Notes: generated from the sequence alone by a model not told the origin. Positions 23,776-48,972 are shown, counted from the stretch's first letter. The stretch: 57,600 nucleotides of DNA from an uncultured Erysipelotrichaceae bacterium (GCA_902794075.1 CADBGE010000001.1:342477-400076), one strand, 5' to 3'. Numbers and translations: made by a program.

Positions 23776-24645
23776 TTAATATCGCCACCAAGATGGTATA
23801 TCTTTTAATTTTTTACATTCTTTAAACATTTCTGTTGTATCTACAATACTATTAATTTTCCATCCTTCAATATTACCAATATGTTCAATGTTTCTGCATC
23901 CTTTGAACATTTTATTAAAACTATATATATTAGTATAATTAATTTTACTAATGTCACCAACATCTATTAGCCTAGTACAATTTTCATAAAGACAACTTAA
24001 TGATTGATGTTTATTTATACTCCAACCTGTTATATCTGCACTTTTTATTTTTCTACAGCCACTAAACATTGAATTAATATTATCTACATCATTTACTGTC
24101 CAATTTTTTACAAAAGAAACATCTAATAATGATTTACAGTCATAAAACATATGACTAAAATTTTTACATTTTTTAACATCCCAATTTGATAAATCAATTT
24201 TTTTTAAAAAACTACATTGCGAAAACGTCCATGACATATCTTTAACATTTGAAACATTTAATTCCTCTATTCCAATGATTTCTTCAACACTACCAAGACC
24301 TTCAAACATTGCAGACATATTTGTTGCTGAAGAAGTATTCCAATCAGAAATTATAAGTTTTCTCATTCTTACATATGATGCATTATCGATACTTGCAAAT
24401 ATGGCACTGAAATCATCTATTTTGGACACATCTATATCTGAAACGTCCAATATATAATTTTTCATATAAATTTCATTATCATAACTACATAACTTACTTA
24501 ATATTTTTATTAGTTCTTCCCGTGTTTGTGGATGATATTTATATGATACACCAACTATATTTGAGTTTTTGCTGATTATTAGTTTTTCATTCACTTGCGA
24601 TGGAAATATTAGTTTTTCATCAACATATTTGGATAGTGATTTCAT
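23776..24645 (-). CDS. CTS-leader BspA/DUF285-type LRR protein
   Basis: MKSLSKYVDE-KLIFPSQVNE-KLIISKN; WDVxxxxxxxxMFxxC repeats; ends IPSWWRY. Confidence 0.85.
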   Translation of the reverse strand: MKSLSKYVDEKLIFPSQVNEKLIISKNSNIVGVSYKYHPQTREELIKILSKLCSYDNEIYMKNYILDVSDIDVSKIDDFSAIFASIDNASYVRMRKLIISDWNTSSATNMSAMFEGLGSVEEIIGIEELNVSNVKDMSWTFSQCSFLKKIDLSNWDVKKCKNFSHMFYDCKSLLDVSFVKNWTVNDVDNINSMFSGCRKIKSADITGWSINKHQSLSCLYENCTRLIDVGDISKINYTNIYSFNKMFKGCRNIEHIGNIEGWKINSIVDTTEMFKECKKLKDIPSWWRY

Positions 24646-24664
24646 TATGTTTCAATAAATATAT

Positions 24665-25309
24665 TTAGAATGTTCTCCAAAATTTAAATATCTGATTCAT
24701 TGTTGCTTTACTAAAATGTCCTTCTGTATAAAATGCAGTTGAAAATAATCTAGGAGGAATTATCCATGCCTGAGACCTAAGTATTGGAACATACATCTTT
24801 ATGCCGAATGCCAACTTATCGGATCTTGAGCATATCTTTTTTATAGCTTTATATGATATATGTGTATTTGGTTTTCCATCATGTTCGTTAAAGTTCTTTT
24901 CCCAGTATGGCATGAATGCTACATAACAAAGTTCAAGAATACGTGCTCTCGTGTATGGTGGAAAATAGTGAAGATTGAAACCAACCTCACGAATAGTATT
25001 GTCTTTTGTACGAGTAATTCCACAGAACAATGTCAAAGGTGTCTTATCATAATATTCAAGTTCCTCCTTAAATTTTGGCTCACTATAATAAAACATACAC
25101 AATTGTCCAGGCAATAAATACTTAGTTGTTTTCTTACTGTTTTTTAATAACTGCTGATATGCAAGACGTGAACGTGTGTTGACAGGACGATGAGCAATAG
25201 GGTGATTTTCTATTGCCTCACGTATGTCAAAATTCTCAATCTCATCAGCCGTATATATATGAGATGTAAGTAACTTTAAGTTCTGTAATGTTCCTAATGT
25301 ACTTGGCAT
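24665..25309 (-). CDS. gp2: T4 gp2-like DNA end protector protein
   Basis: PGQLCMFYY..K.K.ELEYYDKTPL...GFNLHYFPP..R matches T4 gp2 motifs. Confidence 0.8.
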   Translation of the reverse strand: MPSTLGTLQNLKLLTSHIYTADEIENFDIREAIENHPIAHRPVNTRSRLAYQQLLKNSKKTTKYLLPGQLCMFYYSEPKFKEELEYYDKTPLTLFCGITRTKDNTIREVGFNLHYFPPYTRARILELCYVAFMPYWEKNFNEHDGKPNTHISYKAIKKICSRSDKLAFGIKMYVPILRSQAWIIPPRLFSTAFYTEGHFSKATMNQIFKFWRTF

Positions 25310-25312
25310 AAT

Positions 25313-26008
25313 TTATATGAATTCCTCTTTATTTCTATCATACCACTTTGGTATTTTTATAATTCTTGAATCTGCAAACATAAATCTTTTTGAAGCATCT
25401 TCTTTAATCTTCCATTTATTTAAATCACCAACATTAGTTAATGACCTGCATTGTCTAAACATGCGATTAAAATTATCAACATGCGAAACATTCCAGTTTG
25501 ATATGTCTCCTATAAAATTTAATTTATGACAATATGCAAACATTCCTCGTAAGGTATTAAGTTTATCTGTAAAATACCAGTTAGATAAATCTCCTACAGA
25601 TATTAATTCTTCTGCACCACGAAACATTGATGAACAATATTCTGCATTTCCCATATCCCATTCTGAAATGTCAATATATTTTACTTTGCCATAATTGGGA
25701 TTTGCATCAGGATCAAATAAATTATGAAAACGTGCAATTCCAGATACATCTATATAATTAAGATCTAATATTTCTGAAAAATCTGAACATTCATCAGCAA
25801 ATTTATCTATTGCTTTATCTATTATATTGCATAAATCTTCAGTGTTGTTTGCGATAACAGTTTCTGTTTTTTTAGAACTGACACCAATTATTTTTGCATC
25901 TTTATTAATTAATAGTTTTTCATTTAATGAAATCAAAGATGATTTATCAGATTTTATTTCACTTTTGTGAAAATTATTTTCATAAATATGCTGTTTAAGT
26001 GTTTTCAT
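25313..26008 (-). CDS. CTS-leader BspA/DUF285-type LRR protein
   Basis: MKTLKQHIYE-NNFHKSEIKSDKSSLISLNE-KLLINKD; VGDLSNW repeats; IPKWY. Confidence 0.85.
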   Translation of the reverse strand: MKTLKQHIYENNFHKSEIKSDKSSLISLNEKLLINKDAKIIGVSSKKTETVIANNTEDLCNIIDKAIDKFADECSDFSEILDLNYIDVSGIARFHNLFDPDANPNYGKVKYIDISEWDMGNAEYCSSMFRGAEELISVGDLSNWYFTDKLNTLRGMFAYCHKLNFIGDISNWNVSHVDNFNRMFRQCRSLTNVGDLNKWKIKEDASKRFMFADSRIIKIPKWYDRNKEEFI

Positions 26009-26072: not shown

Positions 26073-27047
26073 TCAATTCTTTTCAGTTAATGTTATGTAT
26101 GAATAACGAAGTTCTGTAGAGCCTAATGCTACAAATGTATATTGTTCACCTGTTACATAGAATACTTCAAACAATGTTCCGTCTATGTCTTCTTCACTAT
26201 ATATTATCTGTTTATCATCCTCATCTATATTTGATACTAGTTTTTCTATACTTTCAGCATTTGGCATCAATGATTTGACTTTACCTGTTCTTACAAGTTC
26301 ACCAGAATTAAATGTATATCCGTTTTTATCTTCATAAAAATATATGTGTTTCATACACTCGTTTTTCCATTTATTTGTTTCTGATGTATCAAACAGTAAT
26401 GAATGATTTTCTGCAAGAAGCTTTATTTTTATTTCTATATTATATTTAAGATTTATTGTATACTCTGAATGTGCCACGCCTTCCTTAAAATCAACATATT
26501 TCTTTATAAGATAATAAATACTGCTAGACTCATCATTATAATTCTTGTTGATAATTAATCGTTCATTGACTGGAGTCTGCTCCCATTTCTGTAATATGTT
26601 AAACACCTCAGGCATCCATTTTCTATCATCAATCTTTTCATCACTAAAATTTATCCATTCATACTTTGAATGTTCTCGTGAAATCTTTACTTTATCTATT
26701 TTTGTTTCAAGTCTTGTCCAAAATACATGTGAAACATTGCCATCCTTATATTTATAATCAAATAACTGTTTCATATTGTTGACTTCATTAAACGATAATG
26801 ATATTCCTGTTTCTTCAACAGTCTCACGAACAGCAGCATCCTTTAGAGTCTTATCAGCAACATCAACTGCTCCACCAATTACACCCCAGCATGTTCTGAA
26901 GTTCTTCATATAGTTAGCACGACGAAGTATAAGTATCTTTCCTTCAGGATTCTCAAGTATGACATCAACAAAATCTTGATTCTTTCCAGAATATGTCATC
27001 TTTGAACCATCAAGAGCCTCAGCTAAATATTTATTCAATGATTTCAT
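26073..27047 (-). CDS. CTS-leader Nudix hydrolase fused to a second leader-headed domain
   Basis: MKSLNKYLAE; Nudix box GGAVD..DKTLKDAAVRETVEETG, SREHSKYEW; internal PVNE-RLIINKNY. Confidence 0.85.
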   Translation of the reverse strand: MKSLNKYLAEALDGSKMTYSGKNQDFVDVILENPEGKILILRRANYMKNFRTCWGVIGGAVDVADKTLKDAAVRETVEETGISLSFNEVNNMKQLFDYKYKDGNVSHVFWTRLETKIDKVKISREHSKYEWINFSDEKIDDRKWMPEVFNILQKWEQTPVNERLIINKNYNDESSSIYYLIKKYVDFKEGVAHSEYTINLKYNIEIKIKLLAENHSLLFDTSETNKWKNECMKHIYFYEDKNGYTFNSGELVRTGKVKSLMPNAESIEKLVSNIDEDDKQIIYSEEDIDGTLFEVFYVTGEQYTFVALGSTELRYSYITLTEKN

Positions 27048-27820
27048 TTGTTTAAGTCATTAATAAGTTTCTTTATATCCTTCTTTGTATAGTGTTTATA
27101 CTTTTGTGTCTCAGTATCATAAAACATAAATTCGCATTCATTGTCAGGTGATGCAGAATAATAATCATGTATGTTTATTTTTTCAGGTACATTCTTAGAA
27201 ATTTTATTTAAGAATTCAATTGAATCATAGTAATCAAGACCAACAAGATAAATACTTAATGTACTGTTTTCTGTTTTCCAAAAGTAATAATCATCTATTC
27301 TTTTTAATATTGTTGTAGGTCCATCTGTACCTGATAAATTCATTATTATCTTATTATATTCAACCTTACAATTTATGCCAGCAGCAAGCATTACTTGATC
27401 TTCACTATTATTACTCTTATTATTATTACTCTTATCCCATACTAATGTATATATAAATAGACACCTAGTATCCTCAAATTTATAAGTCTTATTAATGACA
27501 AGTTTTTCATCTACTTGTGATGGAATAATGACAAGTTTTTCATTCACTTGTGATGGAATAATGACAAGTTTTTCATCTACCTTTTCTTTCTTCAAAAGTT
27601 GCTTTGCCTTGTTTAGAACATTCTTATTTGATAAGTTATCTCCAGCGCGATTCATATAGAAACATAAGCGCTGCATTGCCTGAGCTTGGTCCTTTGAATT
27701 CTTCATCAGATAATCAACAATCTCCTTAGGATCATCACTAGTGAACAAACCCTTCTTAGGATGCCAACTAGTATTGACATCTGACAACTGTTCTTTTATG
27801 TATATATTAAGTGACTTCAT
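27044..27820 (-). CDS. CTS-leader DUF3175-like domain fused to a second leader-headed domain
   Basis: MKSLNIYIKE; GLFTSDDPKEI...AMQRLCFYMNRAGDNL...LNKAK resembles DUF3175; internal (KLVIIPSQV[N/D]E)2-KLVINK. Confidence 0.7.
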   Translation of the reverse strand: MKSLNIYIKEQLSDVNTSWHPKKGLFTSDDPKEIVDYLMKNSKDQAQAMQRLCFYMNRAGDNLSNKNVLNKAKQLLKKEKVDEKLVIIPSQVNEKLVIIPSQVDEKLVINKTYKFEDTRCLFIYTLVWDKSNNNKSNNSEDQVMLAAGINCKVEYNKIIMNLSGTDGPTTILKRIDDYYFWKTENSTLSIYLVGLDYYDSIEFLNKISKNVPEKINIHDYYSASPDNECEFMFYDTETQKYKHYTKKDIKKLINDLNK

Positions 27821-27854: not shown

Positions 27855-28367
27855 TCATTTGCATTCTATTATAAACAATTCAAATATTTCATTTGTTTTT
27901 TCATTTAGAAAAAATGATAGCACATACGTTTCATTCATTATCATTGAAAACAGATGACCCTCACCAAGTTCACAATTCTTTATTGAATACTTATCTTTGT
28001 TGTCAATAAGATATTCATATAATTCATTTATTTCATCTGAATAGTTTGATTCTGTGTCAATATATGGTTTTATTAATGCTCGCTTATAATTTTGTGTACT
28101 TATTTTATTTGGCATAAAATTACATGTCTTTCGTATCTTATCATACATATTCTGTTTAGCTTTCATACCGTATGCGCCGTATGTTGTCTTAATCATACCA
28201 GCAATGACTCGAAAGTAGAATATTTCATATGACCCGTCAAACGTCGTGTCATCATCTTCAGGATTGTCAAAAAGTTCTTTTATGATGTTAATTATTCCGT
28301 CATTTGGTCCTTTATAATTCTTATTGATGATTAATCGTTCTTCTATGTATTCTTTAAGAGTTCTCAT
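27855..28367 (-). CDS. CTS-leader protein, unknown cargo
   Basis: MRTLKEYIEE-RLIINKNY. Confidence 0.8.
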   Translation of the reverse strand: MRTLKEYIEERLIINKNYKGPNDGIINIIKELFDNPEDDDTTFDGSYEIFYFRVIAGMIKTTYGAYGMKAKQNMYDKIRKTCNFMPNKISTQNYKRALIKPYIDTESNYSDEINELYEYLIDNKDKYSIKNCELGEGHLFSMIMNETYVLSFFLNEKTNEIFELFIIECK

Positions 28368-28382
28368 CTATTTACATAATGT

Positions 28383-29426
28383 TTATTTATATGTTACTAT
28401 GATGTCTCCATATGAACTTATTGGTGATACCTTCTTAGGGCCAATAAGCGCGCATAATATCTCTGAAGTCTCAATTACTTTTACAATAAATTCAAAACCA
28501 GTAAAACCACTATATGTCTTATCATACGTTATCTCAAGTTCATTCTGGTGTTCATCAATATATTCAATCATATCATTATATATTTTCATTGAATTACTTG
28601 TTGTAGCAAGGCAATGCATAATCTCACCTGATGAACTCTTTGCTTTCTCAAATATGTCATTTATTTCATTATGCACTCTTTTAGTCAACGGAATATTTTT
28701 TATGTCTTTAAAATGTCTGTAATATGTGAAAAAACGACATTCAATAAGGTCACTAATTGATTCCTTGAATGTTTCATAGAACTCATCATTTCCAATAACT
28801 TTGAAGTTCTTATTGATTACAAGTTTTTCATTCACTTGTGATGGAATAATTACAAGTTTTTCATTCACTTGTGATGGAATAATTACAAGTTTTTCATCTA
28901 CATTTTCTTTAAACGGTTCTACATCATCAAGATCTTTTTGATTAAAACCAATGTACACCCATCCTGCAGAACTCTTTAAAGATATAATTATTATTAGATC
29001 ATCCGTTCTGAATATATTAACCCCCTTATTACGAATGTCATCATTATTGGCCCACACATTTTTACCGTTGTCCTTTATCTTTTCAGAAATTTTTATGACA
29101 ACATCACTTACGCCATTATCAACAATATCATATCCATGTAATCTATATAATGTATCAAGCTCATCAAACTGATTACATATGTTAACAAGTTTCTTATAAT
29201 CCGTTAAATCTAATGAAGATCCAAGCAAATTATCAATATCATTAAGAACATTTTTGCTAAACTTTCCTACTCGTGAAATATCTTTTTTTGTATAAACACG
29301 AGTCTGATTAAGATCTATATATTTTTTTATAATACTTAATGCAATATTAGTATCATTAGAACTGACATTCTTGAAGTTCTTATTGATTACAAGTTTTTCG
29401 CTTAAAAAGTCTGCTAATTTCTTCAT
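28383..29426 (-). CDS. Two-cargo CTS-leader polyprotein (C-half is family X)
   Basis: Start reassigned to MKKLADFLSE-KLVINKNF at 29426 (TAATG overlap); internal NVDE-(KLVIIPSQVNE)2-KLVINKNF. Confidence 0.8.
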   Translation of the reverse strand: MKKLADFLSEKLVINKNFKNVSSNDTNIALSIIKKYIDLNQTRVYTKKDISRVGKFSKNVLNDIDNLLGSSLDLTDYKKLVNICNQFDELDTLYRLHGYDIVDNGVSDVVIKISEKIKDNGKNVWANNDDIRNKGVNIFRTDDLIIIISLKSSAGWVYIGFNQKDLDDVEPFKENVDEKLVIIPSQVNEKLVIIPSQVNEKLVINKNFKVIGNDEFYETFKESISDLIECRFFTYYRHFKDIKNIPLTKRVHNEINDIFEKAKSSSGEIMHCLATTSNSMKIYNDMIEYIDEHQNELEITYDKTYSGFTGFEFIVKVIETSEILCALIGPKKVSPISSYGDIIVTYK

Positions 29427-30091
29427 TATAGTATTCCTTGAATTTTTAATTTTTGTAACACAACAAGTGAAACATTCCATGCAGACAAATGGCCGACGTT
29501 GCCTCTAAGTTTATGACACCCTACGAACATATCATTAACGCCATAGTCTCTAATACTTTCAGGATCCCATTTACTTATATTGCCTACATATTCTAACTTT
29601 GCGCAACGTTGAAACATTCCTTCAGCATCTTCTAATTTCCTGACATCCCAATTAGACAGATCACCAACACTGACTAATTCTTTACAATCACAAAACATCC
29701 ATTTCATTCGTTCAACATTGCTTACATCCCATTCAGATATGTCAATGTATCTAATTGTAACCTCATCGTTGACAGCATCAAATAGACAGCTCATTTCGGT
29801 GACTTCACTTACATCAATATGATTAAGATTTATTGGATGCAGTCTTGACTGACCGTTACCTGATTGCTTATGCACTTCGGTAATTACTATATCGTAGAGA
29901 TTATCATTAGTAGCCTTTATTTCTTCAAGTTCTGTATCAACAAAATCTTTATTTATGACAAGTTTTTCATTCACTTGTGATGGACATATGACAAGTTTTT
30001 CATTCACTTGTGATGGAAATATGATAAGTTTTTCATCAAATCGTTGATTGATGATTAGTTTTTCAGATATGTGCTGTGTTAATGATTTCAT
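29426..30091 (-). CDS. CTS-leader BspA/DUF285-type LRR protein
   Basis: MKSLTQHISE plus three different inserted modules; IDISEWDVSNV, VGDLSNW repeats. Confidence 0.85.
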   Translation of the reverse strand: MKSLTQHISEKLIINQRFDEKLIIFPSQVNEKLVICPSQVNEKLVINKDFVDTELEEIKATNDNLYDIVITEVHKQSGNGQSRLHPINLNHIDVSEVTEMSCLFDAVNDEVTIRYIDISEWDVSNVERMKWMFCDCKELVSVGDLSNWDVRKLEDAEGMFQRCAKLEYVGNISKWDPESIRDYGVNDMFVGCHKLRGNVGHLSAWNVSLVVLQKLKIQGIL

Positions 30092-30131
30092 TACGTTTTT
30101 CTAAATATTGTTTTTTTTTCTAATCTTAACA

Positions 30132-30746
30132 TCAAGATGAATACCAATATGGTAATTTTTTTAACTTTTTACACCCACTAAACATATTAGTTATGTCAAC
30201 TGGTCCATAATAAGTATTTTCTATATCCCATTGTGAAAGATCACCTATATATTCTAATTTTTCACAGCCTTCAAACATTTTCTCAGCCCATCCAAGATTA
30301 TTTATCTTCCAATTTGATAAATCTCCTACACTTACAAGATCATTACATCCAGAAAACATCCAACGCATTGAACTTACCTTTCTTACATCCCATTCAGATA
30401 TATCTATATATCTAAGCGTATCAATATTTTGTTTTTCGACATCTGACTGTACGGCATCAAATAGACAATCAAAATCCGTTGCTTCACTTACATCAATGTG
30501 ATTAAGATCTATTGGAAAATTTTTATTGTTTGCTGTTTCCAATTGTTTTATTGTTTCATCTCTAACCGTTTCATATAAATTGTCATTATTCACTTTAATG
30601 ATATCTCTTTTAAATTCCTTAAAATTTTTATTTATTACAAGTTTTTCATTCACTTGTGATGGAATAATGACAAGTTTTTCATTTATAAATTCATTCAAAG
30701 AATGAAGTGTTTTCATTTGTGAAATATGTTGTGATAATGTTTTCAT
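30132..30746 (-). CDS. CTS-leader BspA/DUF285-type LRR protein
   Basis: Start reassigned to MKTLSQHISQ at 30746; close paralog of 29426; ends LPYWYSS. Confidence 0.85.
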   Translation of the reverse strand: MKTLSQHISQMKTLHSLNEFINEKLVIIPSQVNEKLVINKNFKEFKRDIIKVNNDNLYETVRDETIKQLETANNKNFPIDLNHIDVSEATDFDCLFDAVQSDVEKQNIDTLRYIDISEWDVRKVSSMRWMFSGCNDLVSVGDLSNWKINNLGWAEKMFEGCEKLEYIGDLSQWDIENTYYGPVDITNMFSGCKKLKKLPYWYSS

Positions 30747-30747
30747 A

Positions 30748-31305
30748 TCATTTATATTCAAATTTATAAGCAAATATGATTATAGTGTTTAAAGATGTTG
30801 AATCTGACTTATTCTCTGGACCTACGAGGCCTATTACATGTTCATCTGTTTCAAATACTTTAATTATTACTTTACTTTTTGACATACTATTTGCATATTT
30901 TGTTTCAGCATCATTACATAAAAAATCAATGTCATCGTGCTTTCTATTCAACAAATCTAACATATTATAAAATATGTTTGTCGCCTTCTTGAGAGTCACA
31001 TAATGAACAAATATTCTTTTATCTTTTGGAATGCGAGGCCTTATTATGTCATTAAGCTTCTTCAGTATAACTTTATCAATTGCAATTACATCATTAAGAT
31101 CTTCATACATACCCCACATATTGTTGCGTGATATCCATTGAAAATCTTTCTTGAATGCATCATAAATAGTATTGTTAATTCCGGGTGACTTGTAGTTCTT
31201 ATTGATGATAAGTTTTTCATCCACTTGTGAAATATGTTCAGCAATAAATTCATTCAAAGAATGAAGTGTTTTCATTTGTGAAATATGTTGTTGTAATGAT
31301 TTCAT
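30748..31305 (-). CDS. CTS-leader protein, cargo family X
   Basis: MKSLQQHISQMKTLHSLNEFIAE-HISQVDE-KLIINKNY; VFET..VIGLVGP...IIFAYK. Confidence 0.8.
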   Translation of the reverse strand: MKSLQQHISQMKTLHSLNEFIAEHISQVDEKLIINKNYKSPGINNTIYDAFKKDFQWISRNNMWGMYEDLNDVIAIDKVILKKLNDIIRPRIPKDKRIFVHYVTLKKATNIFYNMLDLLNRKHDDIDFLCNDAETKYANSMSKSKVIIKVFETDEHVIGLVGPENKSDSTSLNTIIIFAYKFEYK

Positions 31306-31991
31306 TATTGTTTACATAAATTTTTATATAATGTTTCTATTTCATTCCACGTGTCCTCCGATTCCAAATAATATTCAGGAGTTGAATCGTCTTTTGAAAA
31401 ATGTGAATTTTTAGATAATGAATATACCTCTTTCTTTGGTACATAGTCGTTATATTCTATTCTCATTCCATTATGAACTGGAATAAATACAAATTTACTA
31501 TATAAAAGATTTGCGTTATTGAGTGTCTTTTTCCAATTTAGATGAAACAAATACATTAAATGACTTCCATTCATTAATTCCTTTAAAGCACATAAATAAT
31601 ATCCATGATTTGCATATCTGCATTGTTGAGCAAATGATATTTTCTTTGTGGCTGAATTTACAAAATATTCATAAAATGTATTACTTGCTACATTGTCCGT
31701 ATCTTTACAATATAATCCATATCGATTTAAATTCCACTCAAGATCATATATGTCATCTAAACCACTATAATTATAATCTTTATTTATAACAAGTTTTTCA
31801 TTCACTTGCGATGGAAATATGATAAGTTTTTCATCAACGGGTTGATGACGTATGACAAGTTTTTCATTCACTTGTGATGGAAATATGATAAGTTTTTCAT
31901 CAACGGGTTGATGACGTATGACAAGTTTTTCATTCACTTGTGATGGAAATATGACAAGTTTTTCAGTTATGTAATTTGTTAATGATTTCAT
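31305..31991 (-). CDS. CTS-leader protein with five inserted leader modules, cargo family Y
   Basis: Start MKSLTNYITE at 31991 (ATGA overlap); C-terminus EYYLESEDTWNEIETLYKNL resembles 33281. Confidence 0.8.
   Translation of the reverse strand: MKSLTNYITEKLVIFPSQVNEKLVIRHQPVDEKLIIFPSQVNEKLVIRHQPVDEKLIIFPSQVNEKLVINKDYNYSGLDDIYDLEWNLNRYGLYCKDTDNVASNTFYEYFVNSATKKISFAQQCRYANHGYYLCALKELMNGSHLMYLFHLNWKKTLNNANLLYSKFVFIPVHNGMRIEYNDYVPKKEVYSLSKNSHFSKDDSTPEYYLESEDTWNEIETLYKNLCKQ
31797..31961 (-). repeat. Alternating 33-bp leader modules (A-C-A-C-A; 66-bp higher-order repeat)
   Basis: Encodes KLVIFPSQVNE / KLVIRHQPVDE alternation. Confidence 0.9.
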
Positions 31992-32629
31992 TCTTTGTAC
32001 CAATTCGGTATATTTGTTATTCCTGAACCTTCAAACATAAGATTCATATATTTAACATTTGAAACGTCCCAATTAGATAGGTCTCCTACTGATGTTAATT
32101 GTTCACATCCATAAAACATACCCTTCATAATTTTACATTTTGAAACTTTCCAATTTGATAAATCACCAACTGATTTTAATTGTTTGCATTTATAAAACAT
32201 AAAATACATATCTTTAACATTTGAAACATTCCAATTTGATAAATCACCAACTGATTTTAAATTGTAACATTCAAAAAACATAATATACATATCTTCAGCA
32301 TTTGAAACATCCCAGCCCGATACATCAATGTATTCAAATTTTGTTTTTTCAAATATTCCTTTATTTTTTTCATCCCAAAAAGAATTAATATTGCTAACAT
32401 CAATATCATTAAAGCCGATAGGGTTCTGTTCTGTACCAGGTCCTAACTTATCATATCTATCTTCTATTATCTTTTTTAATTCTTTAAATGATTTTGGAGC
32501 ATAAGTATACTGCTTATAATTTTTATTGATGATTAGTTTCTCATCAAGTCGTTGATTGATGATTAGCTTCTCGTTTAATGAAATTAAAGATGATTTATTA
32601 TCTTTTAAATATTCTGTTAACTTTTTCAT
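31988..32629 (-). CDS. CTS-leader BspA/DUF285-type LRR protein
   Basis: MKKLTEYLKDNKSSLISLNE-KLIINQRLDE-KLIINKNY; LKSVGDLSNW repeats; close paralog of 37960 and 47052. Confidence 0.88.
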   Translation of the reverse strand: MKKLTEYLKDNKSSLISLNEKLIINQRLDEKLIINKNYKQYTYAPKSFKELKKIIEDRYDKLGPGTEQNPIGFNDIDVSNINSFWDEKNKGIFEKTKFEYIDVSGWDVSNAEDMYIMFFECYNLKSVGDLSNWNVSNVKDMYFMFYKCKQLKSVGDLSNWKVSKCKIMKGMFYGCEQLTSVGDLSNWDVSNVKYMNLMFEGSGITNIPNWYKE

Positions 32630-32630
32630 A

Positions 32631-33284
32631 TCATCGAAGAAATTCCTTTAATGTAGATGAACTACAATCACCACCTTTATTTAATAAATATTCAAGTAAT
32701 AATTTAAAATCTTTAGATTCAATTTTATACCAATTATTACATTCTGATATTAATTCATATGTTCCATATATAGTATCTATGTCTGCATTTACATATTTCA
32801 TTTTGTTACTTATTCGTATTATTGCTGCTCCAGACAGTTCCTTACAGGATGTTTTATCAGATGTCATTGCGAAAACAAATGAATCATATTTTGGTACATC
32901 GCCATTATATAAATTATTATATCCTACAACTGCTCCAAATTTTTTTAGTTTATTTAAAATATTATTAGATGAGGATATCTTTGTACCTATTTTTGTAATA
33001 ACATCAACTATTATATTATAATTTTCTAATCCATTTTCATTATTTATAGTAAACCCCGGACGTTTAAATTTAAGAACTGTATCTGTTTGAAGTGGTTTTT
33101 GTTTAATATAATTATCATCAAATATATTGATAATACGTGTAACTTCTATAAATTTAAAATCTTTATTTATGATTAATTTTTCAGCAATATTTACATTTTG
33201 ATGTAAAGTTTTACTTTCAGCAATAAATTCATTCAAAGAATGAAGTGTTTTCATTTGTGAAATATACTGTGTTAATGTTTTCAT
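32631..33284 (-). CDS. CTS-leader protein, unknown cargo
   Basis: MKTLTQYISQMKTLHSLNEFIAE-SKTLHQNVNIAE-KLIINKDF. Confidence 0.8.
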   Translation of the reverse strand: MKTLTQYISQMKTLHSLNEFIAESKTLHQNVNIAEKLIINKDFKFIEVTRIINIFDDNYIKQKPLQTDTVLKFKRPGFTINNENGLENYNIIVDVITKIGTKISSSNNILNKLKKFGAVVGYNNLYNGDVPKYDSFVFAMTSDKTSCKELSGAAIIRISNKMKYVNADIDTIYGTYELISECNNWYKIESKDFKLLLEYLLNKGGDCSSSTLKEFLR

Positions 33285-34230: not shown

Positions 34231-34237
34231 TTATATG

Positions 34238-34750: not shown

Positions 34751-34771
34751 TATTTCACATTAATAATTTTA

Positions 34772-34783
34772 TAATTAAAAATA
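34772..34783 (-). promoter_or_regulatory. Candidate late-promoter motif TATTTTTAATTA
   Basis: Exact 12-mer heading the 34750 to 23776 gene run. Confidence 0.45.
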
Positions 34784-34840
34784 TTTCATTGTTAACAACG
34801 AAAAACTTTTTGCTTAGCAAAAATATTTTTTATACATACT

Positions 34841-39350: not shown

Positions 39351-39997
39351 TGTACTCCTTTTGGTTTAAATTTATCATCTATGTCGCACTCGTTAAACAT
39401 TCCATCAGTGTCAGATTTAACTACAATATTCCAATTAGATAAATCAGAATTATAATTCGTACAATGAGCAAACATTTCTACAAAATCTTTACATTTGCTA
39501 ACATTCCACTTACTTAAATTAGAATTAAAGTTTTCACATCCAAAAAACATATGGTTAAAATGTCTGCTCTTACTTACATTCCAATCATTTAGATCACAAT
39601 TAAATTTATTACAATTATAAAACATGTAACGAAAATCTACGCCTTTACTAACATCCCAATTACTTAAGTCACAATTGAATTTTTCGCATCCTCCAAACAT
39701 CCATGAAAAATCTTTACCATTACTTACGTTCCATTCACTAATATCAAAATTGTTTGGTGTATTTTCATTCATAAAAATAGAACTAAAGTTAGTTATTTCA
39801 GATACGTCTATGTCATTTAAGTCATATATGTCATTATCATAATGTTCTTGTATTGCAGCTTCTAATTCTTCTCTCGTTGTTGGATGATAATTATAACCGT
39901 CTTTATAATTCTTATTTATGATTAATTTTTCATTCAAATATTTATTCAAAGAATGAAGGTCTTTCATATATGAAATATATGTCGTTAGTCTTTTCAT
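39347..39997 (-). CDS. CTS-leader DUF285-type LRR protein
   Basis: MKRLTTYISYMKDLHSLNKYLNE-KLIINKNY; FNCDLSNWDVS repeats; ends KPKGVQ. Confidence 0.88.
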   Translation of the reverse strand: MKRLTTYISYMKDLHSLNKYLNEKLIINKNYKDGYNYHPTTREELEAAIQEHYDNDIYDLNDIDVSEITNFSSIFMNENTPNNFDISEWNVSNGKDFSWMFGGCEKFNCDLSNWDVSKGVDFRYMFYNCNKFNCDLNDWNVSKSRHFNHMFFGCENFNSNLSKWNVSKCKDFVEMFAHCTNYNSDLSNWNIVVKSDTDGMFNECDIDDKFKPKGVQ

Positions 39998-40056
39998 TGA
40001 ATAGTGTTGATTAATTTTTATATATTAATATATAAGATAACATTTATTTAATATAT

Positions 40057-43240: not shown

Positions 43241-44116
43241 ATGAAATCATTAAAACATTACATAGAAGAAAAACTTATCATATTTCCATCACAAGTAGAT
43301 GAAAAACTTGTTATATTTCCATCACAAGTAGATGAAAAACTTGTCATATTTCCATCACAAGTAGATGAAAAGCTTGTAATAAATAAGAATTATAGTAGTG
43401 GACATTCATGTAAGCCAAAAACAATAGAAGAACTTCGGACTATTATTGGTCAACGTATAAAAGATCAAGGATATGGGACAGAACACGATCCAATTAGTTT
43501 TAATGATATTGATACAAGTGAAATAACTACGTTTGAATCACTATTTTGGAACTCTAAATATGATAATGACATAAGTAAATTAAAATATATAGATGTATCT
43601 GACTGGGATGTTTCAAATGTAAATAACTTTAGAAATACGTTTTATGATTGTGAGGAACTTGTAAGTGTTGGTGATTTATCAGATTGGGATATGACTAATG
43701 CTGAAAATATTAGCGGTATGTTTTATTTCTGTAAAAGTTTAACTAATATAGGTGATCTTTCTAATTGGAACATAACTAATAAGTTGACTAATACATCTAC
43801 AATGTTTTGTATGTGTAAATCAATAAAAGACATTGGAAATATTGGAAAATGGGATATGTCAAATGTTAAAAGTACGGTACAAATGTTCATGGCATGTTCT
43901 AATTTAAAAAATGTTGGTGATTTATCTAATTGGGATTTTACAAATGTTTTGGCAATGTCAAATATGTTTTGGAGTTGTTCATCGTTAAAATCTATTGGTA
44001 ATATATCTAAATGGAAAGAACCAAAGGCGTATAAAAGTGACACAACGTTATATTGGCATGAAATTTTTACCGGTTCTGCCATAGATGCTATTCCTGATTG
44101 GTATATGTTTAATTAA
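43241..44116 (+). CDS. CTS-leader BspA/DUF285-type LRR protein
   Basis: MKSLKHYIEE-(KL[I/V]IFPSQVDE)3-KLVINKNY; about six LRRs; ends IPDWYMFN. Confidence 0.88.
   Translation: MKSLKHYIEEKLIIFPSQVDEKLVIFPSQVDEKLVIFPSQVDEKLVINKNYSSGHSCKPKTIEELRTIIGQRIKDQGYGTEHDPISFNDIDTSEITTFESLFWNSKYDNDISKLKYIDVSDWDVSNVNNFRNTFYDCEELVSVGDLSDWDMTNAENISGMFYFCKSLTNIGDLSNWNITNKLTNTSTMFCMCKSIKDIGNIGKWDMSNVKSTVQMFMACSNLKNVGDLSNWDFTNVLAMSNMFWSCSSLKSIGNISKWKEPKAYKSDTTLYWHEIFTGSAIDAIPDWYMFN
43268..43366 (+). repeat. 3 x 33-bp tandem leader module A
   Basis: gaaaaactt[a/g]t[c/t]atatttccatcacaagtagat x3. Confidence 0.92.
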
Positions 44117-45728: not shown

Positions 45729-45947
45729 ATGAAAACATTGAAACAACACATAGAAGAAATAAACGAACGAATTGCTTCACCCATTCTTAATGATTCACAG
45801 TTGAATAGAGTGTGGAACAATATGACAAGCGAGATGGATACTGAAGAACTTCTTGATGCAATATATTCATGTATGGATTCATGAACAAAGAATGAGGTGT
45901 TTTGGAAAATAGACCAAAAATATCATATGCATGTATTTCCAAAATGA
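45729..45947 (+). pseudogene. CTS-leader gene interrupted by an in-frame TGA
   Basis: MKTLKQHIEE...CMDS*(45882-45884)TKNEVFWKIDQKYHMHVFPK*; the second stop forms an ATGA overlap with the next gene. Confidence 0.6.
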
Positions 45948-46438
45948 AACAGTTAACTGACTATATAGAGGAAAAACTATTAATCAACAAGAACTTCAAG
46001 GAGTTTGAACCTGATGAAAAAGAATATGATCCTGAAGAACTTACAACATATGTTCTGGAACACTTCGAAATATTGCCTGACAATCAAACAACAAAACTTT
46101 CACGAATGAATAAGATATCGTCTGATGACTATAATGATTTATATAAAAAGCTTCATAACTTGTTTGTTGATAAGTTTGACGTTGTGTGCTGTAGGAACAT
46201 AACATTTTTAGCAGAAGCAAGATGCATCAGTTGGCTTGATGATAATCTTCAGAATTCATATAAAGAATCATACATAGCCCAAAGAATATGGACAGATGAT
46301 AAAAAGTTGTTAAAGAGAATTTCGGATAAGTTTATCATATTTTATGTATATAATGAATCTGCTAAAATTTTAAAAGTAGTATATAGTAGAACATTAAATA
46401 ACATAACTTTAATCTGTAATATTAATTTTAACCCATGA
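45944..46438 (+). CDS. CTS-leader protein, cargo family Z
   Basis: Start reassigned to MKQLTDYIEE-KLLINKNF; Y..EELT.Y.L..F.I shared with 47771. Confidence 0.8.
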   Translation: MKQLTDYIEEKLLINKNFKEFEPDEKEYDPEELTTYVLEHFEILPDNQTTKLSRMNKISSDDYNDLYKKLHNLFVDKFDVVCCRNITFLAEARCISWLDDNLQNSYKESYIAQRIWTDDKKLLKRISDKFIIFYVYNESAKILKVVYSRTLNNITLICNINFNP

Positions 46439-47055
46439 GAACATTAGCACAACACATAGAAGAACGATTAATCATTAACAAGAACTATAATGACATTTAT
46501 AAGTATTGGCCAAAAGATAAACAAGACCTAGAAAGGATTATTATAGAAGAACATTATAATAAAGGTATATATGATTTAACTGATATAGATGTATCTAATA
46601 TAACTGACTTTAGTTATATTTTTTATGAGGATAAAAATACAGAAAACAAAGATTTTAATATTAGTAGTTGGGATGTAAGTAATGGGATAAACTTTACTTC
46701 AATGTTTTACGGTTGTATAAAATTTAATTGCAACTTGAGTAATTGGAATGTAAGTAATTGTAAAGTTTTTTCTTGGATGTTTGCATATTGTAGGAATTTT
46801 AATTTAAATTTAAGTAATTGGAAAGTAAATAATGGAAGATATTTTGACGCAATGTTTTATGGTTGTACGAAATTCAATTCAAATTTAAGTAATTGGAAAG
46901 TAAATAGTGGAAAAGATTTTTCAGGAATGTTTTATGAATGCATAAATTTCAATTCAGACTTAAGTCAATGGACTATTCAAAATACTGCCAATGTAAGTGA
47001 TATGTTTTATAAATGTAATATAGATGATAAAAATAAACCAAAAGGAGTACGATGA
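46435..47055 (+). CDS. CTS-leader DUF285-type LRR protein
   Basis: MRTLAQHIEE-RLIINKNY; FNxNLSNW repeats; ends KPKGVR; paralog of 38703. Confidence 0.88.
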   Translation: MRTLAQHIEERLIINKNYNDIYKYWPKDKQDLERIIIEEHYNKGIYDLTDIDVSNITDFSYIFYEDKNTENKDFNISSWDVSNGINFTSMFYGCIKFNCNLSNWNVSNCKVFSWMFAYCRNFNLNLSNWKVNNGRYFDAMFYGCTKFNSNLSNWKVNSGKDFSGMFYECINFNSDLSQWTIQNTANVSDMFYKCNIDDKNKPKGVR

Positions 47056-47774
47056 AGTCGTTAAATAATTACATAGCTGAGAAACTAATCATCAATCAGC
47101 GATTTGATGAGAAACTAATCATCAATCAACGATTTAATGAAAAACTAGTCATCAATAAAAATTACAACTCATATACTTGTGCTCCAACAACATTTAAAGA
47201 GTTAGTAAAGATCATAGAACAACGATATAAAGAACAAGGTCCTGGAACAGAGAAGAATCCTATTGACTTTAATGATGTAGATGTTAGCAATATTGATTCA
47301 TTTTATAATGCAAATACAAATGAAGGAATATTTGATGCAACAAAATTTGAATACATTGACATATCTGATTGGGATGTTTCAAATGTTAAGATTATGAATT
47401 ACATGTTTTATAATTGTGAAAAATTAAAATTTGTTGGTGACTTATCTAATTGGGATGTTTCAAATGTTGAAGATATGAATTATATGTTTTCCAATTGTGG
47501 AATAGAATCAGTTGGAAATTTATCTAAATGGGATGTTTCAGGTGTTAATCGTATGCACGGTATGTTTAAAGGGTGTTGTAACTTAAAATCAGTCGGTGAC
47601 TTATCAAATTGGAATATTTTAAAACTTAGAGATGTTGGCTGGATGTTTACATGGTGTTCTAATTTAACATCAGTGGGAGACTTATCAAAATGGAATATTT
47701 CAGGTCTTAGAGATGTAAGTTATATGTTTGAAGGCTCAGGAATAAAAAATACACCAAATTGGTATAAAAAATGA
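47052..47774 (+). CDS. CTS-leader BspA/DUF285-type LRR protein
   Basis: MKSLNNYIAE-(KLIINQRF[D/N]E)2-KLVINKNY; paralog of 37960. Confidence 0.88.
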   Translation: MKSLNNYIAEKLIINQRFDEKLIINQRFNEKLVINKNYNSYTCAPTTFKELVKIIEQRYKEQGPGTEKNPIDFNDVDVSNIDSFYNANTNEGIFDATKFEYIDISDWDVSNVKIMNYMFYNCEKLKFVGDLSNWDVSNVEDMNYMFSNCGIESVGNLSKWDVSGVNRMHGMFKGCCNLKSVGDLSNWNILKLRDVGWMFTWCSNLTSVGDLSKWNISGLRDVSYMFEGSGIKNTPNWYKK

Positions 47775-48253
47775 AGTCATTAAAAAACTACATAGATGAA
47801 AAACTTGTCATCAATAAAGATTTTAATAATGTAAAAGATACATACACTATTGATGAATTAACATATATTATATTAAGCAATTTCCAAATTAAAAGATCAG
47901 ATAAAGCAAGTCCATCTGTTAAACATAAATTAAATTCTTTTAAGTATTCATCTATATACAATTCATTGAAATATTTAATTAAGGATATTGCTGGTGACCA
48001 TGACATTGATACAAATGATGTTTCGTTTTATGTAAGTAAGAAACATGTTTCAGAAATTACTGATGATGAAATTGTAAAACAGTACAATATAGAAGATAAA
48101 AGCAATATATTCTTTGATGAGAACCTATTATGTTTTTCATATGATGATGACTGCAAATTTAGTTTATCATATTGGACAGATAAAAACACATTATACATTT
48201 TTTATTTTGGATATGAAAAATACATAATCTTAACATGTGAAATAAAATTATGA
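47771..48253 (+). CDS. CTS-leader protein, cargo family Z
   Basis: MKSLKNYIDE-KLVINKDF. Confidence 0.8.
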   Translation: MKSLKNYIDEKLVINKDFNNVKDTYTIDELTYIILSNFQIKRSDKASPSVKHKLNSFKYSSIYNSLKYLIKDIAGDHDIDTNDVSFYVSKKHVSEITDDEIVKQYNIEDKSNIFFDENLLCFSYDDDCKFSLSYWTDKNTLYIFYFGYEKYIILTCEIKL

Positions 48254-48972
48254 AATCATTAACAAACTATATTTATGAAAATAATTTTCACAAAAGTGAA
48301 ATAAAATCTGATAAATCATCTTTTATTTCATTATCTGAAAAACTTGTCATCAATAAAGATTTTAAAGAAGCTGTCGTAAAGCCTAAAAACATAGATGAAT
48401 TAAAAGAGTTCATTAATGAACGAATTGAAATGATGATTGATAGTAACACTGATGTATTAGACGTCGCAGGTATTGAATTTTCTTTATTTTCAAATAGAGA
48501 GAAACCATTATATATGTTATTTAATGATTCTTTAGAAAATGTTAAAAAAGATAATATAATTGTAGATGTTTCTAATTGGGATTTATGTAAATTGTCGCGT
48601 ATTGATTGTTTGTTTTATGACTGTAAATCTATTAAAAAGATTGTTGGGTTAGAAACATGGGATGTTTCAAATATAAGAGATTTTGCTGGTATGTTTTCAC
48701 AATGCAATAATTTAGAAGAAGTTGACTTATCTAATTGGAAATTAACCAACGCTATTACAACACTTGCCATGTTCTATGAATGTTTTAGTCTCAAAACGAT
48801 AAAAGGATTAGATACATGGACATTAAATAATAATAAAATTGATATGGACAATATGTTTATTGGATGTATAAATTTAAAAAATATCGGAAATATTGATTAT
48901 TGGTCTCCTGGATCACATAATAAAATGTTTGATAGCTGCAATAAGCAAATAATACCAAAATGGTATAATTAA
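48250..48972 (+). CDS. CTS-leader BspA-type LRR protein
   Basis: MKSLTNYIYE-NNFHKSEIKSDKSSFISLSE-KLVINKDF; LETWDVSNI..FAGMF repeats; IPKWYN. Confidence 0.85.
   Translation: MKSLTNYIYENNFHKSEIKSDKSSFISLSEKLVINKDFKEAVVKPKNIDELKEFINERIEMMIDSNTDVLDVAGIEFSLFSNREKPLYMLFNDSLENVKKDNIIVDVSNWDLCKLSRIDCLFYDCKSIKKIVGLETWDVSNIRDFAGMFSQCNNLEEVDLSNWKLTNAITTLAMFYECFSLKTIKGLDTWTLNNNKIDMDNMFIGCINLKNIGNIDYWSPGSHNKMFDSCNKQIIPKWYN

What the first reader, a model, noticed from the sequence alone, without database searches (positions are those of the whole stretch)
23776..48340. Leaders are built from a small kit of in-frame modules that are mixed and tandemly amplified
Seen: at least six module types are inserted between the MKSL decapeptide and KLxINK. 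A = KL[V/I]IxPSQV[N/D]E (33 bp); B = KLIINQ[R/Q][F/L]DE (30 bp); C = KLVIRHQPVDE (33 bp); D = SKTLHQNVNIAE (36 bp); E = SQMKTLHSLNEFI[A/N]E; F = (NNFHKSEIKS)D(N)KSSLISL[N/S/D]E. Combinations differ by gene: 30091 B-A-A; 30746 E-A; 31991 A-C-A-C-A; 33284 E-D; 38706 D-D-B-B-B; 43241 A-A-A; 32629 F-B; 47052 B-B. Near-identical module DNA occurs on unrelated cargos. All modules keep frame and end in hydrophobic-x-E. Inference: each module adds a protease site and possibly a packaging determinant, so copy number could tune how many molecules are packaged. The modules also provide dispersed homology for cassette exchange.
Basis: partly seen in the sequence, partly recalled or inferred. Interest (0 to 1): 0.78.

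Follow-up and report, generated by a model that had tools for sequence, protein, structure and literature searches.

The report
Hypervariable cut-site modules in phage leaders
A 400-kb cattle-gut phage starts dozens of unrelated genes with a short tag resembling phage T4's "load into the capsid, then cut off" signal. Between tag and protein sit 10-13-residue units, each ending in a likely protease cut site, whose number and order differ between strains even when the protein is identical.

Summary
The 400,076-bp phage contig holding the window has 53 genes with a decapeptide (MKSLxxYIxE type) followed by a KLxINK box.

On that contig, 91 of 92 KL-type junctions follow [V/I/L/F]-x-Glu. The phage encodes one T4 gp21-type (S77) prohead protease and a gp23-type capsid protein. 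Its decapeptide resembles the T4 capsid targeting sequence read from the T4 record.

Public relatives show that the arrays evolve much faster than the cargo. One cargo, 100% identical over 155 residues, carries A-C-A-C-A, A-C-A, B-A-C-A or A. Another carries D-D-B-B-B or D-B.

The same junctions join cargo domains into polyproteins whose internal arrays also vary.

Best reading: these are capsid-targeting propeptides made of duplicated, recombining cut-site units. Cleavage and packaging are inferred, not shown. Tuning of packaged copy number is untested.

Modules E and F are better read as long-leader variants. Earlier notes of this scan report T4-like leaders and protease-jointed polyproteins in other phages. 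None of the eight notes listed mentions tandem module arrays.

The parts
23776..24645 (-). DUF285 gene. Leader 24562-24645: decapeptide, short A module (KLIFPSQVNE), box KLIISKNS.
25313..26008 (-). DUF285 gene. Leader 25895-26008: decapeptide, 10-residue leader-like piece, F, box.
26073..27047 (-). Two-domain gene. Decapeptide then NUDIX domain; internal junction PVNE followed by RLIINKNY (box at 26538-26561); second domain follows.
27044..27820 (-). Two-domain gene. Decapeptide then DUF3175 domain; internal array KVDE, A, A, box at 27482-27571; second domain follows.
27855..28367 (-). Leader+box gene without modules (leader 28314-28367).
28383..29426 (-). Two-cargo polyprotein. N-terminal leader+box at 29373-29426 with no module. 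Internal array NVDE, A, A, box at 28803-28892. The second cargo exists as a stand-alone gene in a relative (P0011).
29426..30091 (-). DUF285 gene. Leader 29942-30091: B-A-A. A relative with 88% identical cargo (P0063) has no module.
30132..30746 (-). DUF285 gene. Leader 30621-30746: decapeptide ending in Gln, E, A.
30748..31305 (-). Leader 31192-31305: decapeptide ending in Gln, E, and a 7-residue remnant of A (HISQVDE). The ortholog in the viral contig G001 has decapeptide plus one A.
31305..31991 (-). Leader 31773-31991: A-C-A-C-A (66-bp unit, 2.7 copies). Relatives with identical cargo carry A-C-A, B-A-C-A or A.
31988..32629 (-). DUF285 gene. Leader 32516-32629: decapeptide ending in Asp, F, B.
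32631..33284 (-). Leader 33156-33284: decapeptide ending in Gln, E, D.
33281..33778 (-). Leader+box gene without modules. Its 30-nt decapeptide DNA is identical to that of gene 29426-30091.
34238..34750 (-). Leader 34652-34750: decapeptide ending in Asp, then F preceded by a duplicated NKSKD piece.
37490..37963 (-). Leader+box gene without modules.
37960..38706 (-). DUF285 gene. Leader 38491-38706: D-D-B-B-B (30-bp unit at 100% matches, 36-bp unit at 95%). A relative with 100% identical cargo (P0066, contig 399,786 bp) has D-B.
38703..39350 (-). DUF285 gene. Leader 39267-39350: decapeptide ending in Ser, then F (20-residue long leader).
39347..39997 (-). DUF285 gene. Leader 39905-39997: decapeptide ending in Tyr, then an E-type unit.
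43241..44116 (+). DUF285 gene. Leader 43241-43393: A-A-A. Relatives with 97% identical cargo (P0059-P0061) have one C-type module instead.
45944..46438 (+). Leader+box gene without modules.
46435..47055 (+). DUF285 gene, leader+box without modules.
47052..47774 (+). DUF285 gene. Leader 47052-47165: B-B.
47771..48253 (+). Leader+box gene without modules.
48250..48972 (+). DUF285 gene. Leader 48250-48363: decapeptide, 10-residue leader-like piece, F.
1999..3889 (+). Three more leader+box genes outside the finding's span (1999-2469, 2497-2982, 3320-3889), all without modules.

Best explanation
The decapeptide is this phage lineage's version of the T4 capsid targeting sequence. It would dock a protein onto the scaffolding core of the assembling head. 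The phage's single gp21-type (S77) prohead protease would then cut after Glu in hydrophobic-x-Glu. The modules are in-frame duplicates of pieces of the leader itself. D and E derive from the decapeptide, B derives from the KLxINK box, and A and C form one further family. Each duplicate ends in a new cut site, so any number or order of them is trimmed away and the cargo is released starting at K-L-x-I-N-K. Every unit begins and ends with the same DNA (the Glu codon followed by the Lys-Leu-Val/Ile codons). The arrays can therefore expand, shrink and swap by slippage and homologous misalignment, within a gene and between genes. The same joints let whole cargo cassettes be exchanged or fused into polyproteins that the protease can separate again. 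On this reading the rapid change in module number is mostly tolerated variation in a discarded propeptide plus a by-product of cassette shuffling, not a tuned dial. Shown here: the anatomy, the protease and capsid genes, and the hypervariability. Inferred: capsid targeting, cleavage, and the recombination mechanism. The role of the conserved KLxINK box left on the mature protein is not explained. The protease probably does not require it, because leader-only genes have varied residues after Glu10.
For: 1. Protease and head. There is one Peptidase_S77 match in the genome (42.9 bits, over the cut-off). It aligns to the solved T4 gp21 structure 5jbl (E 0.002). It is fused to an acidic scaffold-like tail rich in [VI]-x-E. 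The capsid protein is gp23-type (103.6 bits).
2. Leader. T4 IPII and IPIII start MKTYQEFIAE. A leader on the contig at 266169-266909, MKTLKEFINE, shares 7 of 10 residues. In 66 leaders the near-fixed positions are 1-4, 7, 8 and 10; positions 5, 6 and 9 vary. T4 mutagenesis maps targeting to positions 4 and 7 and processing to 8 and 10 (passages of PMC9026906).
3. Cut sites. 91 of 92 KL-type junctions on the contig follow [VILF]-x-E.
4. Long leaders. E and short F follow decapeptides lacking Glu10 (8 of 8 and 9 of 9) and supply the next h-x-E. This parallels T4 IPI's 19-residue leader and the T4 report that Asp10 blocks processing but not targeting.
5. Polyproteins. The same junctions join unrelated domains. 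Internal A copies number 0, 1, 2 or 3 among orthologs. P0086 is a three-domain fusion keeping a leader remnant. P0011 is a stand-alone version of a domain fused in the window.
6. Hypervariability. Of 13 cargo clusters (at least 85% identity), 11 have more than one leader architecture. One of the 11 is a start-call artefact and one is a within-genome paralog pair. Cargo 100% identical over 155 residues carries A-C-A-C-A, A-C-A, B-A-C-A or A. Cargo 100% identical over 176 residues carries D-D-B-B-B or D-B.
7. Selection acts on the peptide. Synonymous codons of the box and decapeptide vary freely.
8. Recent spread. Tandem copies show 91-100% matches.
Against: No proteomic, structural or biochemical data exist for this uncultured phage, so cleavage and packaging are inferred by analogy. 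Some tagged cargos are housekeeping-type enzymes (nucleoside diphosphate kinase, ferritin-like, HAD hydrolase, NUDIX, SprT-like), which are unexpected capsid contents. Roughly 75 tagged genes in one genome far exceeds T4's handful. The strongly conserved KLxINK box is not explained by T4-type cleavage rules. The exact decapeptide pattern is absent from four distantly related huge phages with similar capsid proteins: 0 hits in three and 1 in the fourth. The link to T4 therefore rests on resemblance, not traceable descent. Within-population array variation could not be seen, because the available run contigs break at the arrays. Some array-length differences between short-read assemblies could be assembly collapse.
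Confidence: 0.6

Rival explanations
1. Adaptive dial. Each module adds a binding or cleavage determinant, so module number sets how many copies of a cargo are loaded or how fast it is released. Selection would drive the copy-number changes.
For: Arrays differ between genomes with identical cargo. Modules are kept in frame and keep their terminal Glu. Modules A, B and C repeat the first four residues of the conserved box, so they could be multivalent copies of a docking motif.
Against: There are no data on copies per virion. Module number shows no pattern with cargo type. Zero-module genes are the commonest class (30 of 140 distinct proteins). On the cargo tree, architectures are no more clustered than shuffled labels (14 changes against a shuffled mean of 14.8). 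That is what neutral turnover predicts.
Confidence: 0.15
2. The modules are not removed. They stay on the mature protein as flexible spacers or repeat arms between an N-terminal anchor and the cargo.
For: The structure model gives the leader region (residues 1-73) pLDDT below 50, compatible with a flexible linker. The model is poor overall (mean pLDDT 48.8). The KLxINK box is conserved beyond what a cut site needs.
Against: Every unit ends in the motif of the phage's own protease family. The same units join unrelated domains in polyproteins. Identical cargos tolerate 0 to 5 units, which is hard to reconcile with a structural role.
Confidence: 0.1
3. The modules act at the nucleic-acid level. 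Each carries a 6-7-bp inverted repeat, so the arrays could be hairpins in mRNA or DNA that set translation of the 5' end, or that trigger slippage or recombination. The peptide would be secondary.
For: All six module types have a perfect 6-7-bp stem with a 3-14-nt loop. The frequency of an equal or longer stem in random coding windows of the same contig is 0.015-0.07 per type. With codons resampled for the same peptide it is 0.011-0.16. The 3' half of a module is roughly the reverse complement of its 5' half.
Against: The minimum-free-energy tests are weak (0.02-0.20). The types are not independent. In the relatives G001 and L017 the 5' arm of module A is changed while the peptide is kept. Frame and the terminal Glu are always preserved, which points to selection on the peptide.
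Confidence: 0.1
4. The leader is a sorting or stability tag for something other than the capsid, such as another phage-made compartment or regulated degradation. The Glu sites would be cut by another protease or not at all.
For: Tagged cargos include metabolic enzymes. The number of tagged genes is very large.
Against: The leader resembles the T4 signal at exactly the functionally mapped positions. Only one candidate protease family was sought, and that search found a match. One leader gene sits directly upstream of the protease-scaffold gene.
Confidence: 0.08

Closest known systems
Phage T4 capsid targeting sequence on internal proteins IPI, IPII, IPIII and Alt, removed by prohead protease gp21
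   Same: A 10-19-residue N-terminal leader is shared by otherwise unrelated proteins. Positions 4, 7, 8 and 10 are conserved. The leader ends in hydrophobic-x-Glu. The genome holds a gp21-family protease and a gp23-family capsid protein.
   Different: About 53 leader+box genes plus about 20 leader-only genes lie in one genome, against a handful in T4. A second conserved box (KLxINK) follows the cut site. Tandem, mixed 10-13-residue modules sit between leader and box. Polyproteins are common. The protease is fused to a scaffold-like domain.
Polymorphic internal-protein loci of T-even phages (Repoila et al. 1994)
   Same: These are variable sets of injected proteins that share only the leader, in genomic hot spots. 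Ip1-3 are specific inhibitors of host GmrSD restriction enzymes (passages of PMC12373910 and PMC9026906).
   Different: The 1994 paper is not held. That it proposes recombination at the leader is my recollection only. No tandem leader modules are mentioned in the passages I saw.
Long propeptides with several cut sites in giant phages phiKZ, 201phi2-1 and SPN3US
   Same: These phages have gp21-related proteases cutting after Glu. Several sites lie in one propeptide, which the authors argue ensures clearance. N-termini are conserved on diverged paralogs (passages of PMC5694885 and PMC9026906).
   Different: The motif there is A/S/G-x-E and the propeptides are 100 or more unique residues. They are not arrays of a shared repeat unit, and no strain-to-strain copy-number variation is described in the passages read.
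PeSL promoter/stem-loop cassettes that mediate modular shuffling in T4-type genomes (PMC2839356, PMC4122927; seen as search listing and start of abstract only)
   Same: Short conserved repeats flank variable genes and are proposed as homology for gene shuffling in hyperplastic regions.
   Different: PeSLs are intergenic regulatory DNA. Here the repeats are translated, kept in frame, and double as predicted protease sites.
CTS-like leaders and protease-jointed cargo polyproteins noted by this scan in other uncultured T4-like phages
   Same: One leader is shared by many unrelated proteins. Modules are joined at hydrophobic-x-Glu. Ferritin-type cargo appears among them.
   Different: These are unchecked AI notes, and one is marked as partly fallen. 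None of the eight listed describes tandem amplification or strain-level turnover of leader modules.

Membership tests
T4-type capsid-targeted, gp21-processed head proteins | Short N-terminal leader shared by otherwise unrelated proteins | tested here: met
   53 leader+box genes and about 24 leader-only hits lie on the contig. Cargos include DUF285, NUDIX, DUF3175, ferritin-like, NDK, HAD, SprT-like and many without a family.
T4-type capsid-targeted, gp21-processed head proteins | Leader conserved at the positions mapped in T4 (4 and 7 for targeting, 8 and 10 for processing), ending in hydrophobic-x-Glu | tested here: met
   Of 66 leaders, 62 have L4, 64 have Y/H/F7, 65 have I/L/V8 and 57 have E10. 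The search pattern partly forced positions 4, 8 and 10. T4 sequences come and the T4 mapping from passages of PMC9026906.
T4-type capsid-targeted, gp21-processed head proteins | Genome encodes a gp21-family (Peptidase_S77) prohead protease and a gp23-family capsid protein | tested here: met
   PF03420 scores 42.9 bits and PF07068 scores 103.6 bits, both over their cut-offs. The protease aligns to 5jbl.
T4-type capsid-targeted, gp21-processed head proteins | Leader is removed by the protease and the mature protein is found inside the head | not testable with these tools
   The phage is uncultured and no proteome is available. No RNA run holder was listed either.
Giant-phage (phiKZ/SPN3US) processed propeptides | Cut motif A/S/G-x-Glu in long unique propeptides | tested here: not met
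   P3 is V, I, L or F at 91 of 92 junctions. The propeptide is built from repeat units.
PeSL-type mobile regulatory cassettes | Intergenic promoter plus terminator stem-loop between genes | tested here: not met
   The repeats lie inside reading frames. In the window many cassette genes abut or overlap the next gene by 4 nt.
In-frame palindromic selfish insertions (Rickettsia palindromic elements; recalled, no call) | Palindromic element inserted in frame at many unrelated positions of many genes | tested here: not met
   On this contig every module found lies between a leader or domain end and a KLxINK box. The stems are only 6-7 bp.

The most novel reading that the evidence does not exclude
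The leader joints work as a protein-level cassette system. The DNA homology that lets cargo genes be swapped, duplicated, fused and split also encodes the protease site that makes every recombinant product functional. New joints would arise by palindromic (snap-back) duplication of the box, because the 3' half of a module is roughly the reverse complement of its 5' half. The conserved K-L-x-I-N-K N-terminus left on all released cargos would be a second signal, for example for ejection order or for timed degradation in the newly infected cell.
Probability: 0.25. Interest if true: 0.85.

Novelty: new variant of a known kind. Interest (0 to 1): 0.66.

Why it matters
If the reading holds, this phage lineage has turned T4's capsid-loading tag into a large, fast-evolving delivery platform. 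Roughly 13-15% of its genes (my estimate, assuming about 500 genes on a 400-kb contig) would be loaded into the head and injected. About twenty of these are diversified leucine-rich-repeat (DUF285) binder proteins that could be anti-defence effectors, as T4's Ip1-3 are. The repeat joints would show how a virus keeps such an arsenal modular: any recombinant stays in frame and cleavable. It also gives a simple sequence rule for predicting virion cargo in uncultured huge phages. A 30-position leader+box profile finds 347 protein clusters (50% identity) in public data. Finally, it offers ready-made self-removing linkers for packaging foreign proteins in phage capsids.

Tried and rejected
1. Reads. 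One search for sequencing runs listed 16 DNA holders from 6 studies, cattle, sheep and goat gut among them, and no RNA holder. Laying four runs gave only contigs that stop at the module arrays (for example at 27547, 28845, 28868, 29981, 43309 and 43351). The joints listed between paralogous leaders have short sides. Nothing can be said about within-population copy number or expression.
2. Complex prediction, protease-scaffold protein against the first 40 residues of gene 33281-33778: no answer (score 0.00). This is not evidence either way.
3. Structure prediction of the A-C-A-C-A protein with 11 aligned sequences: mean pLDDT 48.8, too poor to interpret beyond low confidence in residues 1-73.
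4. Near-identity DNA search of window 28000-40000 against GenBank phages: no match.
5. A module-A DNA pattern in IMG/VR: no match. A box pattern found one 44.6-kb contig.
6. My early idea that E modules never repeat in tandem was wrong. Relatives carry 2 or 3 copies (P0005, P0028, P0025).
7. Hairpins were considered as the primary function and demoted.
8. Whether the phage belongs to the published 'Jug' gut phages: passages of PMC12363816 mention neither leaders nor cattle, so I make no claim.
9. The Repoila 1994 paper is not held.
10. Literature searches for tandem or modular cut-site propeptides in phages found none. This covers the held open-access library only.

Full report
WHAT THE WINDOW IS. 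The window is the last 57.6 kb of a 400,076-bp contig with 29% G+C, inside a 129-contig genome bin. Every leader gene found lies on that one contig and none on the other 128. The contig encodes a T4 gp23-type major capsid protein (PF07068, 103.6 bits). It also encodes one T4 gp21-type prohead protease (PF03420, 42.9 bits).

Residues 28-168 of the protease align to the solved T4 gp21 structure 5jbl (E 0.002). The 557-residue protein continues into an acidic, repeat-rich tail with many [V/I]-x-Glu motifs. The same protease-scaffold fusion is annotated in Tenacibaculum phage PTm1.

By capsid protein, the nearest GenBank phages are only 30-34% identical. They are an uncultured 462-kb phage, Tenacibaculum PTm1, Sphingomonas PAU and the Prevotella Lak phages. 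Runs holding near-identical DNA are labelled cattle gut. Earlier notes of this scan call the contig a roughly 400-kb gut or rumen megaphage.

Tandem Repeats Finder reports the arrays as 30-, 33-, 36- and 66-bp repeats with 91-100% matches. A module-A DNA pattern occurs 14 times in the window against 0.00 expected. A Glu+KLxxNK pattern occurs 24 times against 0.01 expected.

On the whole contig I count 57 KLxINK-type boxes:
- 53 sit behind an N-terminal leader.
- 3 are internal to longer proteins.
- 1 is the start of a B-type module.

The strict patterns find these module copies: A 24 plus one short copy, B 9, C 2, D 5, E 3 and F 7. Looser reading of the contexts raises E to 8 and short F to 9. 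A further 24 reading frames have the decapeptide but no box directly after it. A few of these are probably chance hits.

A DNA pattern for the decapeptide hits the contig 48 times and its reversed control never. One further hit, on contig C3, contains a stop codon and looks like chance.

THE LEADER LOOKS LIKE T4's CAPSID TARGETING SEQUENCE. Read from the T4 record, IPII and IPIII begin MKTYQEFIAE and IPI begins with a 19-residue leader ending I-T-E. One leader on the contig, MKTLKEFINE, shares 7 of 10 residues with IPIII.

In 66 leaders the near-fixed positions are M1, K2, S/T3, L4, Y/H/F7, I/L/V8 and E10. Positions 5, 6 and 9 vary freely. My search pattern constrained positions 1, 2, 4, 8 and 10 to small residue sets, so only the dominance of single residues and position 7 are unforced.

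A review of the T4 work states that targeting depends mainly on residues 4 and 7 and processing on residues 8 and 10. It also states that Asp at position 10 blocks processing but not targeting (passages of PMC9026906). Codon choice in the decapeptide and in the box varies widely. The conservation is therefore on the peptide, not the DNA.

THE JUNCTIONS LOOK LIKE CUT SITES. Of 92 places on the contig where a K/R-L-x-x unit (box or module A, B or C) begins, 91 are preceded by [V/I/L/F]-x-Glu. The capsid protein has A-I-H-E-I-H-E about 40 residues from its N-terminus. That fits such a site, but I did not test it further.

THE MODULE KIT NEEDS REORDERING.
- E always follows a decapeptide whose tenth residue is Gln, His or Tyr (8 of 8).
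- Short F always follows Asp, Ser, Asn or Tyr (9 of 9).
- The two long F forms contain an extra leader-like 10-mer that again ends in Ser.

E and F therefore act as extensions that supply the missing Glu site, like the long leader of T4 IPI.

By sequence, E and D resemble the decapeptide itself. B resembles the box, with an intermediate (RLIINKRFDE) at contig position 255335-255364. A and C are linked by intermediates such as KLVICPSQVNE in the window and KLIICHQQVDE in relatives. These kinships are my reading of the sequences, not a formal test.

THE ARRAYS TURN OVER FAR FASTER THAN THE CARGO. This is the main new result. Searching public proteins with only the leader part of two window genes returned 44 and 19 hits. 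Looking up the 90%-identity clusters of the window's proteins gave the clearest cases.

For the cargo of gene 31305-31991:
- The window has A-C-A-C-A.
- P0004, from a 399,950-bp contig, has A-C-A.
- P0054 has B-A-C-A.
- P0053 and P0057 have a single A, P0057 behind a different decapeptide.
- All five share cargo 100% identical over 155 residues.
- Members at 86-92% identity have one A or no module.

For other genes:
- Gene 37960-38706 has D-D-B-B-B, while P0066 (399,786-bp contig) has D-B with cargo 100% identical over 176 residues.
- Gene 43241-44116 has A-A-A, while three relatives at 97% identity have one C-type module.
- Gene 29426-30091 has B-A-A, while a relative at 88% identity has no module.

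In a pooled set of 140 distinct leader+box proteins, 13 cargo clusters (at least 85% identity, at least 80% cover) had two or more members. Eleven of these showed more than one leader architecture. One of the eleven is only a different start call (P0080). One pairs two paralogs of the same genome.

On a tree of 25 DUF285 cargos, the 13 architecture labels need 14 changes, where 12 is the minimum possible. The shuffled mean is 14.8, and 35 of 200 shuffles are as low. Architecture therefore does not track cargo phylogeny. That set was gathered through leader searches and includes fragments.

DNA-level relatives agree. A 44.6-kb viral contig is syntenic with window 3940-45637 at 68-91% identity. 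It has 5 cassette genes where the window has 11. One DUF285 cargo has 0, 1 or 3 A modules in three metagenome contigs.

POLYPROTEINS. Three window genes carry the same junction internally, between two domains. Among orthologs of the DUF3175 gene, the internal A copies number 0 (G001), 1 (P0037), 2 (window, P0025, P0028) or 3 (P0005). The N-terminal E units number 0, 1, 2 or 3.

P0086 fuses a third cargo in front and keeps the tail of the lost decapeptide at the joint. P0011 is the second domain of window gene 28383-29426 as a free-standing gene with its own leader. P0106 and P0169 have whole leader remnants inside. Fusion and fission of cassettes at these joints is what one expects if the joints are cut after assembly.

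BREADTH. A 30-position profile of decapeptide plus box finds 347 cluster representatives (50% identity) at E 0.001 or better among 1.84 billion. In 137 of the 150 listed, the best match starts at residue 1 (my count from its table). The exact decapeptide pattern is absent from LR756500, PTm1 and Lak-A1 and occurs once in PAU. The system is therefore specific to this lineage.

CARGOS. Thirteen of the first 26 window proteins scanned, and one more at 2497-2982, are DUF285 (BspA-like leucine-rich repeats). Others are NUDIX and DUF3175. Leader-only cargos elsewhere on the contig include SprT-like, HAD hydrolase, ferritin-like and nucleoside diphosphate kinase. By analogy with T4 Ip1-3, which block specific GmrSD restriction enzymes (passages of PMC12373910), the diversified binders could be injected anti-defence proteins. 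This is inference only.

WHAT REMAINS OPEN. Nothing here shows cleavage or packaging. The KLxINK box is unexplained, since leader-only genes have varied residues after Glu10 and the protease probably does not need it. Dosage tuning is untested. Run contigs break at the arrays, so population-level variation is unseen. Some length differences between short-read assemblies may be collapse. The differences in module type and in decapeptide cannot be.

Each module also holds a 6-7-bp inverted repeat. This is unusual against random coding windows (0.015-0.07 per type) and against codon resampling (0.011-0.16). The energy-based tests are weak, and one arm is not conserved in relatives. I keep it as a lead on how modules arise or slip.

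PRIOR KNOWLEDGE. The T4 signal, the polymorphic T-even internal-protein loci and multi-site propeptides of giant phages are published. Six searches of the held library found no description of tandem, mix-and-match cut-site modules in phage leaders. This scan has noted T4-like leaders and protease-jointed polyproteins in other uncultured phages. I rate this a new variant of a known kind.

Noticed in passing
window 27493-27580, 28816-28897, 31785-31965, 38500-38687, 43263-43381, 47078-47156: Each module type contains a perfect 6-7-bp inverted repeat. The 3' half of a module is roughly the reverse complement of its 5' half: the Lys-Leu-Val codons against Ser-Gln-Val, and Ile-Ile-Asn against Phe-Asp-Glu. 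This could reflect snap-back duplication or favour slippage.
   Followed up: partly
window 33775-34230 (-): A 151-residue TnsA-like endonuclease (PF08722, E 1.7e-14) without a leader sits in the middle of the cassette array. It is conserved in the relatives G001 (81% nt identity) and L017. It might supply breaks that drive cassette recombination.
   Followed up: no
own genome, contig C1 157553-159226 (-), held as L001:247-1920: The S77 prohead protease is fused to a roughly 380-residue acidic tail with repeated W-[IV]-x-E-E-[FY] motifs, which looks like a scaffold. A leader+box gene lies directly upstream.
   Followed up: partly
own genome, contig C1 184687-185331, 186320-186724, 170495-171142 and 118080-119129: Ferritin-like, nucleoside diphosphate kinase, HAD hydrolase and SprT-like proteins each start with the decapeptide but lack the KLxINK box. 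The ferritin case recalls encapsulin cargo (recalled, and noted by this scan in other phages).
   Followed up: partly
window 672-1547 (-), 41211-42074 (+); own genome contig C1 266169-266909: These three proteins have leader-like N-termini. The two window proteins share a Y-H-[IV]-T-S ... G-L-x-P motif. The contig protein has a weak Tpt1/KptA match (E 0.0057, under the cut-off). They are possibly packaged ADP-ribosyltransferase-like enzymes, as Alt is in T4. I did not verify this.
   Followed up: no
window 48949-49019: A perfect 26-bp tandem repeat (2.7 copies, 100% matches) spans the stop codon of the last DUF285 gene. It is unexplained.
   Followed up: no
window 5299-5344 (+): The 452-residue protein 3988-5346 ends in a Cys-Lys-Asp repeat encoded by an 18-bp tandem repeat (2.6 copies).
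   Followed up: no
window 9682-16434 (-): A 2250-residue protein has many membrane-like segments and repeated K-S-P-L-x-K-V-I ... D-Y-A-D-L-K-I units. It is probably the tape measure or an ejected wall-spanning protein. G001 has a 2290-residue counterpart.
   Followed up: no
window 26073-48972: Many cassette genes overlap the next gene by 4 nt, with ATGA serving as start and stop (for example 27044/27047, 31988/31991, 33281/33284, 37960/37963, 47052/47055). Cassettes are joined seamlessly, and no Shine-Dalgarno-like sequence is visible upstream of the starts.
   Followed up: partly
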